Assembly (NCBI GenBank): GCA_964514415.1
Contig: CAZEQL010000002.1
Coordinates: 1-60,637, forward strand
Reading direction: 5' to 3'
Source of the DNA: an uncultured Dehalococcoidales bacterium
Lineage (GTDB): Bacteria; Chloroflexota; Dehalococcoidia; GIF9; AB-539-J10
DNA: 60,637 bases
Shown here: positions 34,074 to 39,163 of the stretch, piece after piece
How the letters are laid out: every line of letters begins with the position of its first letter
How positions within the stretch are numbered: position 1 is the first letter of the stretch
Program-made: the position numbers and the translations under genes
The notes under the pieces: generated by a model
What the model was told of the DNA's origin: nothing
The model's input: the letters and a program-made list of their open reading frames with translations, nothing else
Databases searched by the model: none

Positions 34074-34595
34074 CTATTTGCTCGCCCTCTTCTCGGCCCA
34101 CTTGCCGGCCCAGGGTACCTTCCACATCTTGCCGGTTCCCGCCAGAACCATAAGAGCAATCCAAAACCCAACAGTCACAACCCAAACAATTACGCTAAGG
34201 ACTCCTGAAGCAACAAGTAGCCCAGGTGAAAAGGTAGCAACCGCGATACCACTAAGAATTGGCGCTACAATAAGCTGAACCACACTCAATACACCAAAAG
34301 TCATAATGGACTGCCAGGCATGGAATTTAACAACTTTGCTCTTCTTCTCAAGTACCGCGAAGACTATCCCCGTTATCCAGCCAGCTACATAGCAAAGAAG
34401 CCCGGCAGTATTGGCTGACATCCCCGTGCTACTCTCCGCTTCCGGCTTGCTGGTTTCCACCTCGGTCTTGCTAGTTTCTGCTTTTGGCTTAGCTGCGCCT
34501 TTAGCTGGCTTTGCAGAAACGCCCATCTCAGCACCACATTTAGCACAAAACTTGGCATCATCAGAATTTTCCGCACCGCATTTAGGACAAAACAT
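34074..34595 (-). CDS. Zinc-ribbon plus DUF4870-like membrane protein
   Basis: MFCPKCGAEN...CAKCGAEM, a low-complexity linker, then 3-4 TM helices. Confidence 0.7.
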   Translation of the reverse strand: MFCPKCGAENSDDAKFCAKCGAEMGVSAKPAKGAAKPKAETSKTEVETSKPEAESSTGMSANTAGLLCYVAGWITGIVFAVLEKKSKVVKFHAWQSIMTFGVLSVVQLIVAPILSGIAVATFSPGLLVASGVLSVIVWVVTVGFWIALMVLAGTGKMWKVPWAGKWAEKRASK

Positions 34596-34728
34596 ATCCC
34601 ACCTCCTTATATTGAAGCTTTGATATTAACTTTACCATACATCATGGATATGTCAATAGTTTGAAGGTGGGGTAGCTACTTAAATGATTTGACATGGACG
34701 AAGTCTCTTCTATTAAGAAAATTCAAAA

Positions 34729-34818
34729 GTGAACCGTTCATGCCTGAAAAGTGGACTCCAATGGTACATCCCTCCGCGAAAAGGAGGGATGTATAGAACA
34801 GGTGCACAAACGGTTCAC
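34729..34818. other. Nested inverted-repeat element: outer 10-bp arms GTGAACCGTT/AACGGTTCAC enclose a perfect 11-bp hairpin TACATCCCTCC-GCGAAAA-GGAGGGATGTA (34765-34793)
   Basis: Read directly from the sequence. A further GGTTCACC copy lies at 34905-34912. Confidence 0.6.
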
Positions 34819-35184
34819 CTCTGAGCAAGTAAAAGCCCCGTTAAAAGGATACTGCCAGAGGCGGTCGCGAATTGAGCCTTTTTTGCTGCCGTGAGTTAGT
34901 TTCGGGTTCACCCTGGCGGAAACGGCAAAGGGGCATGAGCCGCTTGTCAGGGCTTTTCCGGATGGTTATACTGTGGTTGGTGAATGGGAATTGTTCTGAC
35001 AAGGGGGGAGTGGCATATGCCCTTGCAGCGGCTGAATTCGGACGTTAGCTGGCACAAACCACACACTTCGTTGGCGAGACATTCTTCTTGAAAACTGGTA
35101 TGATTCATAGTAGTGAATTGATGCCAACAAATCAGACCCATCCGGTCGGTCTCTCTAAACAGGGGTCGAAGGAGCGAGTGAAAC

Positions 35185-35955
35185 GTGGCTATAGATGAGG
35201 TATTCCCTAATTCAACGGTCAAGCAGGTGATTTTCCAAATCAGATTTCCTAATCTCTTCTATATTGAGAACAGGATTGGTGACTTTCAGACCCGCATAAT
35301 GACCGAATTTCCTCAATCCAGTCTGGTAATCCGGAAGCAGTTCCTATTGGTAGATCTAGGCCCTAAAGTAAAACTGTCTGACCTGCCCGATGATATTGAT
35401 TCCAGTACCGAGCAAGCAAACAAGATATGGCAGTTCCGATCACCAAAAGGCTTCGAGTTGAACGTATTTACGAACTCTCTAGATATAACGTCTTCTTACC
35501 ACAAAACTTATAACCTGCCAGGCGCCGACAGATTTCGCGATATCATCGAGTTTGTACTGACTAAATTCTTTGAAGTCATGGCACTGCCAATAGTAAATCG
35601 CATTGGCTTGCGCTACATCGATGAATGCCCAGTACCATCTAGAAAAGACTCGACCTTCAAGTCATACTACAATTCGGTATTTCCCCTCAAAAGGTTCCAT
35701 TTGGCTGATGCCCGTGAAATGCGTTTTCAAACATTGGTAAAAAGAGGGGATTACTTCGTGCGCTATGTGGAGAGTTTCCAGACAACTCCCGCCGGAGACA
35801 AGCTCATTCTTGACTTCGATGCATTCGCAGAAAATATCGATATGTCAGCTTGTTTGGCCATCACAGATGAACTCCACACACAAATATCGGACGAATACGA
35901 AAAGACGATCAAGGAACCAGTATACAAGTACATGCGGCAGGCCAAACGCACCTGA
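35185..35955 (+). CDS. TIGR04255-like uncharacterised protein (256 aa), first gene of a three-gene cassette
   Basis: The N-terminal FPNSTVKQVIFQIRF and central VNRIGLRYIDE match my memory of the TIGR04255 signature (NAPLxEVxFExRF ... RIGLRYIN). GTG start with AAGGAG 10 nt upstream. Confidence 0.6.
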   Translation: MAIDEVFPNSTVKQVIFQIRFPNLFYIENRIGDFQTRIMTEFPQSSLVIRKQFLLVDLGPKVKLSDLPDDIDSSTEQANKIWQFRSPKGFELNVFTNSLDITSSYHKTYNLPGADRFRDIIEFVLTKFFEVMALPIVNRIGLRYIDECPVPSRKDSTFKSYYNSVFPLKRFHLADAREMRFQTLVKRGDYFVRYVESFQTTPAGDKLILDFDAFAENIDMSACLAITDELHTQISDEYEKTIKEPVYKYMRQAKRT

Positions 35956-35976
35956 ACAATCACGGAGGTATGAACA

Positions 35977-36231
35977 ATGCATCCACGCCAAGATGATTAT
36001 TCTTTTACAGTCCATCCGTATTCTGTGCCATCCTCCACTGGTCAGCATGTGGAGAGCTGCAAGACTATCGTGTACCCTTTTGACAAGTATGATATCGTCA
36101 TGAAGTTAACCCAAAACAACGAGTTCGTGGACGTGATTGAAGTCAGAATCAGAAAGGATTTTCTCTCATATAAACAGAAGATAGCCCGCAAAGGATTCCA
36201 TGACGTCGAAGAGTTTTATCGTGATGAGTAG
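35977..36231 (+). CDS. Hypothetical 84-aa protein, second gene of the cassette
   Basis: GGAGG at 35964-35968, 8 nt before the ATG. There is a 21-nt gap from the upstream stop. I recognise no motif. Confidence 0.55.
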   Translation: MHPRQDDYSFTVHPYSVPSSTGQHVESCKTIVYPFDKYDIVMKLTQNNEFVDVIEVRIRKDFLSYKQKIARKGFHDVEEFYRDE

Positions 36232-36239
36232 GTAGTTGC

Positions 36240-36866
36240 ATGTTCTATGCACTAACTGTGGACGATGCTTTGCGATTCGGAGATGTTGTTGAGGGTTACA
36301 TATCAACTGTTCCCACTATAGTTAAACCGACTCTCACCATAATAGATGCACAAGGCTACAAGATTGATGTACGCATGCCTCGCTATTCAGTCATTCTGTC
36401 GCCATGTTGTTCTATACGTGAAGAAACCATTTCCCTTACCCCCCTAATTCCTGCTGCCCCAAACTTTTTCAAGAACCCCTATTTCGCTGAAGACCTCACC
36501 ATAATCAACCGGCCAATGGAGCCACAGCAAACTCTATCTCCCGACGGGTGGGAGAAACTTCCTCCCGAAGAAAAACAAACCCGCCTTGCTGAAGGCTTCA
36601 ACTATGCCCTCTTGCACTTCTTTGTGTATGAGCAACATGATTTGTTTCCATACTACGAACTTCGGGATGGGACCAAAAACAACTACTACATGATCGATTT
36701 CAGGAGCACCTACAGGCTGAACTGCGGGCTGATACTCTCACCCACCAATGCGCCATTACAATCAAAATGCTTGCAACTTTCCATTGAAACTCGCTCCGAG
36801 CTGCGCGACAAGTTGGCTTACTACTACTCAAGGGTGCCCGAAGAGGATCAATTACTTCAAGACTAG
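36240..36866 (+). CDS. Hypothetical 208-aa protein, third gene of the cassette
   Basis: It starts 8 nt after the previous stop. Notable segments are FGDVVEGY...RYSVILSPCCSI, YYMIDFRSTY and a C-terminal LRDKLAYYYSRVPEED. I cannot name a family. Confidence 0.6.
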   Translation: MFYALTVDDALRFGDVVEGYISTVPTIVKPTLTIIDAQGYKIDVRMPRYSVILSPCCSIREETISLTPLIPAAPNFFKNPYFAEDLTIINRPMEPQQTLSPDGWEKLPPEEKQTRLAEGFNYALLHFFVYEQHDLFPYYELRDGTKNNYYMIDFRSTYRLNCGLILSPTNAPLQSKCLQLSIETRSELRDKLAYYYSRVPEEDQLLQD

Positions 36867-36963
36867 CCAGTCTGCCTGATACCTTGCAGCACCAGCCATC
36901 ATAGCGACCTGTTCCCCCAAAACCAGGCAGCCAGGTGATATAATACATAATACAGGGGAGCGT

Positions 36964-37232
36964 ATGAAACTCACCGACAATGAAATCCGTGACATCACCC
37001 AATACCTTGAAGCGGGGAAGCCGTTGCCGGACAAGTACCGTTTTCTCCTGTTTGAAGAGAAACGGGAGGTTGAACTGGTATGGAACGGCTCAAAGAATGG
37101 TGCAAGGACATCAACAAAGCACAATCTGAAATCAAGTACGACTTCGTTTTCGTGGACGAGGAAAGCTTCAACCAATATCAACCCAAGAGTTTCAGGTCGC
37201 TGGTAAATTCGTTCCGTCAATACAGAGATTGA
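36964..37232 (+). pseudogene. Deletion scar of a type III-like R-M system: mod 5' end (about 42 codons) joined out of frame to a res/helicase 3' end (about 48 codons)
   Basis: In frame 1, LTDNEIRDITQYLEAGKPLPDKYRFLLFEEKREVELVWNG is the classic N-terminus of adenine methylases (..ELxWxGK). From 37086 the other frame reads RLKEWCKDINKAQSEIKYDFVFVDEESFNQYQPKSFRSLVNSFRQYRD*, which resembles restriction-helicase C-termini. TATAAT at 36939-36944 and the SD are retained. Confidence 0.6.
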
Positions 37233-37336
37233 AGCTATTGGCGAGGATGAAATATAGCAAGTCACTGCAGTCCAACCACCGGACTTAGTTTGAAGGTTAG
37301 AGCGAGCGCGGGCTATAATGTTTGAACTCGCAAAAT

Positions 37337-39163
37337 ATGAAAAACCTCGGGAGTATTCTAAATCAAGTTACCAAGCCCGCTCGCTATACTGGAGGTGAGT
37401 GGAATAGCATTATTAAACCATGGGAGACAACACCTGTCCGAATCGCCTTATGCTATCCCGACGTTTATGAAATTGGCATGTCCAATCTGGCATTACCTAT
37501 CCTCTATGAAATACTAAATAATCAGCCCGATGTTTTAGCCGAAAGGGTTTATGCGCCATGGATAGATATGGAGGCTGCTCTGCGGGACCAAAATATCCCG
37601 CTTTTTAGCCTGGAATCTAAACACCCATTAAAAGAATTCGATATCTTCGGTTTTTCCCTGGGCTACGAGCTTACCTATACCAATGTGCTGAACATCCTCG
37701 ACCTGGCTCAAATCCCCCTCCTCAGTTCCCAGAGAAAAGCTCCCTATCCCTTAATAATCGCCGGGGGTAGCTGTGCTCTTAACCCTGAACCAATGGCTGA
37801 CTTCATCGACCTGTTTGTAATCGGTGAAGGCGAAGAGGTAATACTGGAGCTATTAGAAGTCTTCCGTGCATATAGAGGCAACGAGGAGGAACTATTAAGG
37901 CAAGCAGCCAGGCTGGATGGCATATATATTCCCGCTTTCTATCAAGTCAGTTACAGGAAAGACGGCATTATCGACAGCATTACACCCCAGCTACCTGAAG
38001 CCAAGCCGAGGGTCAAGCGCAGAATAGTAACTAAGCTTCCTTCCCCGGTCACCAAGCCAGTTGTTCCTTACCTCGAGGTAGTGCATGACCACGGTAGCGT
38101 AGAAATTCAGAGAGGTTGCACTCGAGGCTGCCGCTTCTGCCAGGCAGGCATGATTTATCGCCCAGTACGGGAACGGCCACAAGAAGAGGTGGTAAATGCT
38201 GTAGGCGAACTGTCAAAACATTGCGGTTACAACGAGGTGTCTCTGCTTTCTCTAAGTACAGGGGATTACTCTGACATCAAAGGTCTTGTTACCAAACTAT
38301 CACATACGTATTACGGAGATAGCTTAACCTTCTCGTTACCAAGCTTGCGCCTGGATTCTCCCGCCGTAGAATTGATGGATTTATTACCATCACGGCACAA
38401 AGCAACTTTGACCTTCGCCCCCGAGGCGGGTAGTGAAAGATTGCGGCATGTTCTCAACAAAGGCATTTCCGAGGAAACTATATTAGCAACGCTAGCTTCT
38501 ATCCAAGATAGAAGTGGGATAAATGTCAAGCTATACTTCATGATAGGTTTGCCCAGTGAAACTATCGACGACATATACAGCATCATCAAATTGGTAACTA
38601 CGGTATGCCGCCCAAGGAGAAAAAATAAACTACACATTAGCACAACAATCCTCATTCCTAAACCTCACACTCCCTGTCAATGGCTAGCGCAAGAAACAGA
38701 GGAACAACTGCTACTCAAATATGACATATTGCGGGAAGGGCTGCGCCCGCTGAAAGTGAGATTTTCATGGCCTGACCCTAAAGCTAGCCGAATTGAAGCA
38801 GCTTTATCCCGGGGTGACCGCCGCTTAGGCAAGGTTATCTATCGCGCCTGGCAACTAGGCTGTAAATTTGATGCTTGGAGCGAACACTTCAATTATCAAA
38901 AATGGATTGACGCTTTCAGACAACTTGGACTCGATCCCTCCTTTTATGCCAATCGAGAACGAGCCCTGGATGAGTTATTACCTTGGGATCACATCGATAC
39001 CGGCGTGACTCCAGAGTTTCTCAAAAGGGAATACCACAACCTGTGGCAAGAAAAGGAAACCCCTTCTTGCCTTTATGGGAAATGCAACGCTTGTGGATTG
39101 CAGCGCTGGCAAACTAGTTGCCTGAATAAATTAATCTCCTCTCAAGCCGTGAGTACGGATTAA
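37337..39163 (+). CDS. B12-binding-domain radical SAM protein (TIGR03960-like)
   Basis: N-terminal KPARYTGGEWN and the cluster motif CTRGCRFCQAG. ATG 37337 is preferred over TTG 37322. Confidence 0.8.
   Translation: MKNLGSILNQVTKPARYTGGEWNSIIKPWETTPVRIALCYPDVYEIGMSNLALPILYEILNNQPDVLAERVYAPWIDMEAALRDQNIPLFSLESKHPLKEFDIFGFSLGYELTYTNVLNILDLAQIPLLSSQRKAPYPLIIAGGSCALNPEPMADFIDLFVIGEGEEVILELLEVFRAYRGNEEELLRQAARLDGIYIPAFYQVSYRKDGIIDSITPQLPEAKPRVKRRIVTKLPSPVTKPVVPYLEVVHDHGSVEIQRGCTRGCRFCQAGMIYRPVRERPQEEVVNAVGELSKHCGYNEVSLLSLSTGDYSDIKGLVTKLSHTYYGDSLTFSLPSLRLDSPAVELMDLLPSRHKATLTFAPEAGSERLRHVLNKGISEETILATLASIQDRSGINVKLYFMIGLPSETIDDIYSIIKLVTTVCRPRRKNKLHISTTILIPKPHTPCQWLAQETEEQLLLKYDILREGLRPLKVRFSWPDPKASRIEAALSRGDRRLGKVIYRAWQLGCKFDAWSEHFNYQKWIDAFRQLGLDPSFYANRERALDELLPWDHIDTGVTPEFLKREYHNLWQEKETPSCLYGKCNACGLQRWQTSCLNKLISSQAVSTD

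What the first reader, a model, noticed from the sequence alone, without database searches (positions are those of the whole stretch)
35185..36866. Compact three-gene cassette (TIGR04255-like + 84 aa + 208 aa unknowns) next to an R-M scar: best candidate for an undescribed system
**Seen:**
- Three plus-strand ORFs are packed with 21-nt and 8-nt gaps.
- The first two have good SD sequences: AAGGAG before GTG 35185 and GGAGG before ATG 35977.
- The cassette sits in an islet that interrupts a run of housekeeping genes.
- An IR-rich 590-nt spacer precedes it, and the fossil of a type III-like R-M system (36964-37232) follows directly.

**Gene content:**
- Gene 1 carries what I recognise as the TIGR04255 signature (FPN..VKQVIFQIRF, RIGLRYID). 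To my knowledge this widespread family has no assigned function.
- Genes 2 and 3 match nothing I can name.
- Gene 3 has an N-terminal GDVVEGY...RYSVILSPCCSI segment that loosely resembles MazF-type GDI...RPvvVlS barrels, plus a conserved-looking C-terminal LRDKLAYYYSRVPEED.

**Inference:** adjacency to decayed restriction genes, operon compactness and the lack of any metabolic logic suggest an accessory defence or toxin-antitoxin-like module.
Basis: partly seen in the sequence, partly recalled or inferred. Interest (0 to 1): 0.75.

Follow-up and report, generated by a model that had tools for sequence, protein, structure and literature searches.

The report
Mobile three-gene cassette with MazF-like protein
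Three tightly packed genes of unknown function are a real unit that moves between bacteria and archaea, and one of them has the fold of the MazF/CcdB toxins, so the cassette is most likely an undescribed three-part toxin-antitoxin or defence module.

Summary
g1 (35185-35955), g2 (35977-36231) and g3 (36240-36866) are intact plus-strand ORFs with 21-nt and 8-nt gaps. g1 is a TIGR04255 protein (84.7 bits, cut-off 30).

- **Synteny:** searching outward from g3 gave 44 of 45 genome loci with g1-g2-g3 in this order. Searching from g1 gave the trio in every metagenome contig long enough to hold it. Hosts span many bacterial phyla and archaea, including Promethearchaeum MK-D1.
- **Flanks:** no flanking gene is conserved.
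- **Selection:** all three genes are under purifying selection (median dN/dS 0.19, 0.20, 0.29) and co-evolve (rho 0.78-0.86).
- **Fold of g3:** a confident AlphaFold model (pLDDT 92.6) retrieves almost only MazF and CcdB toxins from the PDB (probability up to 0.99, target TM 0.65). The core is split by a conserved helical insertion of about 50 residues. There is no sequence-level signal to MazF.
- **No annotation:** g2 and g3 match nothing in Pfam, NCBIfam, PADLOC, PHROGs or PDB sequences. No paper in the held library mentions TIGR04255.

Best reading: a mobile tripartite toxin-antitoxin or abortive-infection-type module with g3 as effector, g2 as neutraliser and g1 as an enzyme-like third partner. 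Function is inferred, not shown.

The parts
34880..35184 (+). Leader region that travels with the cassette. It holds promoter-like sites at 34944-34972 and 35076-35104 and the g1 Shine-Dalgarno AAGGAG.
   Evidence: This is the left end of the only block the window shares with L001 (34880-37089, 95.2% over 2214 aligned columns). Across 109 loci the only conserved upstream feature is the Shine-Dalgarno sequence, with no conserved palindrome.
35185..35955 (+). g1: a 256-aa TIGR04255-family protein and the most conserved of the three. It carries many invariant polar residues (H106 K107 Y109 R118 R139 R143 Y144 D146 C148 E196 D210 D212 D228 H231).
   Evidence: NCBIfam TIGR04255, 84.7 bits. No Pfam, PADLOC, PHROGs or PDB-sequence match. 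Conserved residues were read from 117 sequences. Median dN/dS is 0.19.
35977..36231 (+). g2: an 84-aa protein with a variable N-terminus, a conserved core (YPFDKYEI..NEF.GI.EV.VNKDF) and an acidic-aromatic C-terminus (HDVDEFY.E). It is the candidate neutraliser or adaptor.
   Evidence: Found between g1 and g3 in 43 genome loci, mostly with -4, -1 or small positive gaps. Median dN/dS is 0.20. No family or PDB match.
36240..36866 (+). g3: a 208-aa protein with a CcdB/MazF-type fold split by a conserved helical insertion (about residues 74-120). It is the candidate toxin or effector.
   Evidence: AlphaFold2 with 138 sequences gave pLDDT 92.6 and pTM 0.88. The top Foldseek PDB hits are almost all MazF or CcdB (probability up to 0.99, target TM 0.63-0.65), and the top viral hit is a PemK/MazF toxin. 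The family is small: 370 representatives at 50% identity, and the 150 listed are single-domain. Median dN/dS is 0.29.
36964..37232 (+). Deletion scar of a type III-like mod-res pair: the head of mod (36964-37098) joined to the tail of res (37080-37232). It is a neighbour of the cassette, not a conserved part of it.
   Evidence: blastx against the L001 728-aa methylase N-terminus gave 89% over 45 aa, and that protein carries the N6_N4_Mtase domain. tblastn matched the C-terminus of a DEAD/DEAH helicase downstream of a methyltransferase on NZ_AP017989.1.

Best explanation
The cassette is a self-contained, horizontally mobile three-gene conflict module of the toxin-antitoxin type.

- **g3** is the effector. 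It is a protein with the CcdB/MazF toxin fold, carrying a conserved helical insertion, and when free it poisons a nucleic-acid-linked target. RNA cleavage like MazF, or a protein target like CcdB poisoning gyrase, cannot yet be told apart.
- **g2** is made just upstream by coupled translation. It is the small cognate neutraliser or adaptor.
- **g1** is the TIGR04255 protein, with enzyme-like invariant residues. It is an obligate third partner that either controls release of the effector or neutralises it enzymatically.

**Shown:** the genes are real, strictly linked, co-evolving, mobile across domains of life, and g3 has this fold.

**Inferred:** toxicity, who neutralises whom, and any anti-phage role.
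For: **Linkage**
- g3-seeded search: 44 of 45 genome loci have the trio in this order, and the one exception is cut by a contig end.
- g1-seeded search: every contig with enough room after g1 has g2 and g3, except L079, where an IS element cuts g3.
- Clustering of flanking ORFs found no fourth conserved gene.
- Stop-start overlaps or very small gaps between the genes are the rule.

**Selection and co-evolution**
- Median dN/dS is 0.19, 0.20 and 0.29 for g1, g2 and g3.
- Pairwise identities of the three genes correlate with rho 0.78-0.86.

**Mobility**
- Proteins are 55-65% identical between a Dehalococcoidales-like window and Methanophagales, Bathyarchaeia and KSB1.
- The window and L001 share only a 2.2-kb block around the cassette.
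- One copy abuts a phage integrase, with PHROG-family (phage) genes on both sides.
- Other copies sit next to an IS element, integrases, type IIG or type III R-M genes, ParE/HTH or YefM/YoeB pairs, or Schlafen/AlbA_2 genes.

**Fold**
- The confident g3 model retrieves MazF and CcdB almost exclusively.
- To my knowledge, every characterised member of that fold class is a toxin.

**Decay pattern**
- g3 alone is disrupted in L079 (IS insertion), L044 (frameshift) and L033 (C-terminus lost).
- g2 is never disrupted on its own.

**Precedent**
- A split MazF-like protein with a five-helix insertion, GajC, is a validated abortive-infection effector (PMC13069673).
Against: - There is no sequence-level link to MazF/PemK or CcdB.
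- The position of the MazF catalytic arginine, before the VVLS strand, is variable in g3.
- g3 is acidic (window pI 4.9, family median 6.2), which is unusual for an RNA-binding nuclease.
- g2 has no recognisable DNA-binding antitoxin domain.
- No conserved operator palindrome lies upstream.
- Some copies sit among housekeeping genes with no defence or mobile neighbours.
- No copy was found on sequenced plasmids or isolate phages.
- The Foldseek E-values are modest (best 0.02).
- g1 has no precedent in toxin-antitoxin biology, and one locus (L013) has a frameshifted g1 with g3 intact.
Confidence: 0.5

Rival explanations
1. The cassette is a dedicated three-component anti-phage (abortive infection) system rather than an addiction module. 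g1 senses infection, possibly by acting enzymatically on a phage or host molecule. g2 couples the sensor to the effector. g3, the split MazF-like protein, shuts the cell down.
For: - Several copies lie beside R-M genes: the window scar, L001, L134 and MK-D1.
- Others lie beside Schlafen/AlbA_2 and DUF4062, or next to a prophage integrase, where phage defence cargo is usually carried.
- GajC of type II Gabija has the same kind of split MazF-like architecture and acts as an abortive-infection effector (PMC13069673).
- The enzyme-like invariant residues of g1 suit a sensor or regulator better than a passive antitoxin.
Against: - No PADLOC model, including the candidate PDC systems, hits any of the three proteins.
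- Neighbourhood enrichment is modest and was not tested statistically.
- About a third of the annotated contexts are housekeeping.
- No helicase or ATPase partner like GajB is conserved.
- The cassette is rare: 45 of 185,579 species genomes.
Confidence: 0.25
2. The cassette has a non-conflict cellular role. A MazF-fold protein would serve as a nucleic-acid or protein-binding subunit of a small enzyme complex (g1 catalytic, g2 and g3 accessory), for example in RNA or nucleotide processing in anaerobic sediment microbes.
For: - g1 is the most conserved of the three and looks like an enzyme.
- g3 is acidic and lacks the MazF catalytic arginine at the expected position.
- Several copies sit among housekeeping genes.
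- Purifying selection on all three genes is strong.
Against: - The distribution is sporadic, crosses domains of life and disagrees with taxonomy.
- Flanks are never conserved.
- Copies occur in a prophage and next to IS elements and integrases.
- Decayed and IS-disrupted copies exist.
- To my knowledge, no non-toxin member of the CcdB/MazF fold class is known.
Confidence: 0.15
3. The three ORFs are not a functional unit: chance ORFs, or an unrelated gene pile-up in a decaying islet.
For: - The window copy sits next to a deletion scar, in an islet that differs from its closest relative.
Against: - More than 100 independent loci keep the same three genes in the same order and spacing.
- dN/dS is 0.2-0.3.
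- The g3 model is confident.
Confidence: 0.01

Closest known systems
MazEF / PemIK (Kis-Kid) and CcdAB type II toxin-antitoxin systems
   Same: - g3 has the CcdB/MazF fold.
- A small gene lies directly upstream of it, with coupled translation.
- The module is short, mobile and sporadically distributed.
   Different: - There are three obligate genes, not two.
- There is no sequence similarity to PemK/MazF or CcdB.
- The g3 core is split by a conserved helical insertion of about 50 residues.
- g2 matches no antitoxin family.
- No operator was found.
- g3 is acidic.
GajC of type II Gabija (Liu-DS1; PMC13069673)
   Same: [quoted passage not shown] The g3 model shows a MazF-like core interrupted by six short helices.
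   Different: - GajC works with the UvrD-type helicase GajB, and no helicase is linked to the trio.
- The partners here are TIGR04255 and an 80-aa protein.
- Homology between g3 and GajC could not be tested, because the GajC sequence is not in the held text.
TIGR04255 family (NCBIfam; function unknown)
   Same: g1 is a full-length member above the curated cut-off.
   Different: The family carries no functional annotation. No paper in the held library mentions it. The strict link to g2 and g3 shown here concerns this subfamily only; the wider family was not surveyed.
Tripartite toxin-antitoxin systems (TAC toxin-antitoxin-chaperone, PaaR-PaaA-ParE, omega-epsilon-zeta), from my own knowledge
   Same: Three co-transcribed small genes in which the third component modulates a toxin-antitoxin pair.
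   Different: Known third components are SecB-like chaperones or small DNA-binding regulators. g1 is a 256-aa protein with enzyme-like conserved residues and no match to either.
Type III ToxIN/AbiQ (Kid-like fold toxin with a repeat-RNA antitoxin), from my own knowledge
   Same: The toxin fold is related to Kid/MazF, and the system has a defence role.
   Different: No tandem repeat array lies upstream and there is no Rfam match. Protein partners take the place of the RNA antitoxin.

Membership tests
TIGR04255 (g1) | Full-length match to the NCBIfam model above its curated cut-off | tested here: met
   84.7 bits against a cut-off of 30, model positions 2-248 of 252
PemK/MazF toxin family (g3) | Sequence match to the Pfam PemK_toxin profile or to MazF/Kid sequences | tested here: not met
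   No Pfam hit at E up to 5 in 26 members. The PDB sequence-profile search found nothing.
PemK/MazF toxin family (g3) | CcdB/MazF-type fold (SH3-like barrel plus C-terminal helix) | tested here: met
   Model pLDDT 92.6. About 30 of the top 32 PDB hits are MazF or CcdB, with probability up to 0.99 and target-normalised TM 0.63-0.65, although the best E-value is only 0.02.
PemK/MazF toxin family (g3) | Catalytic Arg (E. coli R29) and Thr (T52) at the beta1-beta2 and beta3 positions | tested here: inconclusive
   The residue before the VVLS-like strand is variable, and the Thr in ISLTPLI is only partly conserved. No residue-level superposition was available.
CcdB family (g3) | Sequence match to CcdB, and gyrase-binding residues in the C-terminal helix | tested here: inconclusive
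   There is no sequence match. CcdB chains are among the top fold hits. Gyrase binding cannot be tested with these tools.
Type II toxin-antitoxin module | Small neutraliser gene adjacent to the toxin gene and co-translated with it | tested here: met
   g2 lies directly upstream of g3 in 43 loci, with gaps mostly -4, -1 or below 13 nt.
Type II toxin-antitoxin module | Antitoxin with a recognisable DNA-binding domain, and a palindromic operator upstream | tested here: not met
   g2 matches no Pfam family or PDB sequence. Palindromes upstream of g1 are no more frequent than in shuffled sequence, 17 against 17 of 109.
Type II toxin-antitoxin module | Toxicity of the toxin, relieved by the antitoxin | not testable with these tools
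   This needs expression experiments.
Known anti-phage defence systems (PADLOC-DB 2.0.0) | Match of any component to a defence-system model | tested here: not met
   No hit at E up to 1 for g1, g2 or g3.
Type II Gabija (GajC-GajB) | Split MazF-like effector encoded next to a UvrD-type GajB helicase | tested here: not met
   No helicase or any other gene is conserved next to the trio. The split MazF-like architecture itself is shared (PMC13069673).
Type III ToxIN-like systems | Tandem repeat array encoding an RNA antitoxin upstream of the toxin | tested here: not met
   The only tandem repeat in 34400-37400 is a 15-nt array (two copies of a 7-nt unit) at 36940-36954, downstream of g3. There is none upstream of the toxin gene.

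The most novel reading that the evidence does not exclude
The trio is a previously unrecognised three-component conflict system shared by Bacteria and Archaea, including the Asgard archaeon Promethearchaeum syntrophicum. In it, a TIGR04255 enzyme controls a split MazF/CcdB-fold effector through an 80-aa adaptor. This would give the first functional role for a branch of the TIGR04255 family and a new mode of regulating a MazF-fold toxin.
Probability: 0.3. Interest if true: 0.75.

Novelty: new variant of a known kind. Interest (0 to 1): 0.62.

Why it matters
- **A first context for TIGR04255.** The family has no function attached to it in NCBIfam, and no paper in the held library mentions it. 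Here one of its branches is tied, without exception in more than 100 loci, to a protein with a toxin fold.
- **A concrete experiment.** Express g3 with and without g2 and g1. The result could define a new three-part toxin-antitoxin or abortive-infection system.
- **Reach across domains of life.** The cassette is exchanged among anaerobic sediment bacteria, methane-cycling archaea and an Asgard archaeon. It is therefore also a marker of recent gene flow between domains in those communities.
- **Split MazF-like effectors.** If g3 proves related to GajC of type II Gabija, split MazF-like effectors would emerge as a wider class that pairs with different partner proteins.

Tried and rejected
- **First structure job.** AlphaFold2 of g3 with only 26 sequences failed (pLDDT 46). 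The second job, with 138 sequences, succeeded.
- **Sequence searches that found nothing.** These were Pfam, PADLOC and PHROGs for all three proteins, weak-hit Pfam scans of whole alignments and PDB sequence-profile searches.
- **MazF at sequence level.** hhalign of the g3 profile against MazF/Kid sequences found nothing.
- **Plasmids and isolate phages.** tblastn of g1 and g3, and of two divergent g1 copies, found no match.
- **Remote relatives of g3.** The exhaustive HMM search found only a compact family of 370 representatives. The 150 listed are single-domain, with no fusions.
- **Regulatory and RNA features.**
  - No conserved operator or motif lies upstream of g1 beyond the Shine-Dalgarno sequence.
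  - There is no credible Rfam match.
  - There is no tandem repeat array upstream.
  - There is no consistent tRNA adjacency.
- **Internal duplication in g1.** Not significant (probability 0.16).
- **Literature.** Searches for TIGR04255 and its synonyms returned zero papers.
- **GajC sequence.** It could not be obtained, because the supplement is either not held or was cut when stored.
Full report
**The observation**

The three plus-strand ORFs are present as described: g1 35185-35955 (256 aa, GTG start), g2 35977-36231 (84 aa) and g3 36240-36866 (208 aa). The gaps are 21 and 8 nt. AAGGAG and GGAGG sit at the right distance before the g1 and g2 starts. g1 is a full-length TIGR04255 protein (84.7 bits against a cut-off of 30). 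None of the three proteins matches Pfam, PADLOC or PHROGs.

The 589-nt spacer upstream is rich in inverted repeats. The downstream 'fossil' is real. 36964-37098 encodes the first 45 residues of an N6_N4 DNA methylase that is intact in the closest relative. 37080-37232 encodes the last ~50 residues of a DEAD/DEAH helicase of the kind that follows a methyltransferase. The scar is therefore an internal deletion of a type III-like mod-res pair.

**The trio is a unit**

- **From g3.** A g3 profile found 45 loci among 185,579 species genomes. tblastn shows g1-g2-g3 in the same order in 44 of them, and the 45th is cut 70 nt upstream of g3.
- **From g1.** A g1 profile returned 80 metagenome loci. Every one with room after g1 carries g2 and g3. 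The one exception is L079, where an IS3-type element is inserted after codon 21 of g3.
- **From viral contigs.** The three IMG/VR hits also carry the full trio.
- **Flanks.** Clustering of all flanking ORFs found no fourth conserved gene.
- **Spacing.** Gene junctions are mostly -4, -1 or a few nucleotides, which indicates coupled translation.
- **Selection.** Median pairwise dN/dS is 0.19 (g1), 0.20 (g2) and 0.29 (g3).
- **Co-evolution.** Pairwise identities of the three proteins correlate with rho 0.78-0.86, so they are inherited and transferred together.

**Mobility**

Hosts include Dehalococcoidales, KSB1, Zixibacteria, Marinimicrobia, Planctomycetota, Nitrospirota and Chlorobium. Archaeal hosts include Methanophagales/ANME, Methanosarcina, Methanothrix, Bathyarchaeia, Pacearchaeota and the cultured Asgard archaeon Promethearchaeum syntrophicum MK-D1.

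The window's proteins are about 60% identical to archaeal copies, but only 41-59% identical to copies in other Chloroflexota-type MAGs (Chloroflexia L022, Anaerolineales L038). The gene tree therefore does not follow taxonomy.

The window and its nearest relative L001 (95-98% protein identity) share only 34880-37089 at the DNA level. Everything else within ±8 kb is unrelated.

Pfam-annotated contexts are mixed:

| Context | Loci |
|---|---|
| R-M genes | window scar, L001, L134, MK-D1 |
| Toxin-antitoxin pairs | L001 YefM/YoeB, L133 ParE/HTH |
| Schlafen/AlbA_2, DUF4062 | L001, L135 |
| IS elements or integrases | L134, L140 |
| Prophage, abutting the integrase | L048 |
| Plain housekeeping | L129, L131/L132, L139 |

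A scan of the two nearest neighbours on each side in 45 loci gave a flat list, with only a sprinkling of methylases, integrases, HipA, a DRT reverse transcriptase and PDC-S02. No copy was found on sequenced plasmids or isolate phages.

**What the proteins are**

*g3.* The family is small and isolated: 370 representatives at 50% identity among 1.84 billion, and the 150 best listed are single-domain proteins of roughly 140-240 aa with no fusions.

A first AlphaFold2 run with 26 sequences failed. With 138 sequences the model is confident (pLDDT 92.6, pTM 0.88). Foldseek against the PDB returns MazF from five species and CcdB in about 30 of the top 32 places. Probability reaches 0.99, and TM normalised by target is 0.63-0.65 over about 195 alignment columns, but the best E-value is only 0.02. 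The top hit among viral models is a PemK/MazF toxin.

The model shows N-terminal strands (22-68), six short helices (74-118), further strands (127-178) and a C-terminal helix (182-196). This is a MazF/CcdB core split by a helical insertion. The insertion holds some of the most conserved residues: N79, D85, T87, N90 and W104.

At the sequence level there is no MazF signal. The position of the MazF catalytic arginine is variable. g3 is also acidic.

*g2.* It has a variable N-terminus, a conserved strand-like core and an acidic-aromatic C-terminus. It has no family or PDB match.

*g1.* It is the most conserved of the three. It carries about twenty invariant polar residues across 117 sequences down to 32% identity. 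That pattern suggests an enzyme or a specific ligand binder.

**Mechanism**

The best-supported reading is a mobile tripartite module of the toxin-antitoxin type, with g3 as effector, g2 as its co-translated neutraliser or adaptor, and g1 as an obligate enzyme-like third partner.

Support comes from the toxin fold, the operon anatomy, the selfish-element distribution and a weak decay pattern. In that pattern g3 alone is lost in L079, L044 and L033, while g2 is never lost alone.

A published precedent exists for a split MazF-like protein with a five-helix insertion acting as an abortive-infection effector. This is GajC of type II Gabija, which pairs with a helicase that is absent here (PMC13069673). 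Whether g3 and GajC are homologous could not be tested.

Several points count against a simple MazEF-like picture:
- there is no sequence similarity to MazF;
- g3 is acidic;
- g2 has no DNA-binding domain, and no operator was found;
- some contexts are housekeeping only.

The rival readings are a dedicated anti-phage system with g1 as sensor, and a non-conflict enzyme complex. A chance pile-up of ORFs is excluded.

**Novelty and verdict**

The cassette matches no described system in PADLOC 2.0.0, and the held paper library never mentions TIGR04255. Its fold class and general logic are known, but its composition is not. I rate it a new variant of a known kind, of moderate to high interest. The function is inferred and remains untested.

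Noticed in passing
window 34722-34825: A nested hairpin: a perfect 11-bp stem (34765-34775 / 34783-34793) inside 21-nt arms. The RNA MFE is -42.9 kcal/mol against -23.6 +/- 3.4 for shuffles (z = -5.8). It is unique in the window and absent from the 136 loci held at the time of the search. It lies 55 nt to the left of the block shared with L001, so it is not part of the cassette. Its role is unknown.
   Followed up: partly
window 36964-37232: The R-M scar is the head of a mod gene (45 codons) joined to the tail of a res-type DEAD/DEAH helicase gene (about 50 codons). This implies one clean internal deletion of a type III-like mod-res pair.
   Followed up: yes
window 34880-37089 versus L001 6645-8849: Only this 2.2-kb block is shared, at 95% DNA identity, between the window and a Dehalococcoidales MAG contig. 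All flanks differ, which points to recent transfer or rearrangement of the cassette together with the start of the methylase gene.
   Followed up: partly
L079 3409-4700: An IS3-family element (OrfA and OrfB on the minus strand) interrupts g3 after codon 21, while g1 and g2 stay intact. A tRNA-Met gene lies about 280 nt upstream of g1.
   Followed up: partly
L048 8987-11461 (IMG/VR contig IMGVR_UViG_3300027924_000681): The trio abuts a convergent phage integrase (phrog_1), with PHROG-family genes on both sides. This is the usual site for phage cargo genes.
   Followed up: partly
L131 versus L132, downstream of 10645: Two contigs carry the same g3 protein. The called genes upstream and in the cassette have the same coordinates and Pfam content, apart from one start site. 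The genes downstream are different, so a synteny break lies right after the cassette.
   Followed up: no
L042 / L137 (Promethearchaeum syntrophicum MK-D1, CP042905.2 around 959-974 kb): The cultured Asgard archaeon carries an intact trio (g3 is DSAG12_01450, g2 is DSAG12_01451) directly downstream of a 1071-aa MmeI-like type IIG R-M gene.
   Followed up: partly
window g1, residues 98-106 and 223-231: The two halves of g1 share a short motif that ends in an invariant histidine (SLDITS.YH and yL.vTD.LH). The profile comparison of the halves is not significant (probability 0.16).
   Followed up: partly
L001 6057-6586 and 8724-14652: In the closest relative the cassette lies between a PhdYefM/YoeB pair and a run made of an N6_N4 methylase, an 867-aa AAA_21 protein and a Schlafen/AlbA_2 protein. 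This is a small defence-type islet that the window has lost.
   Followed up: partly
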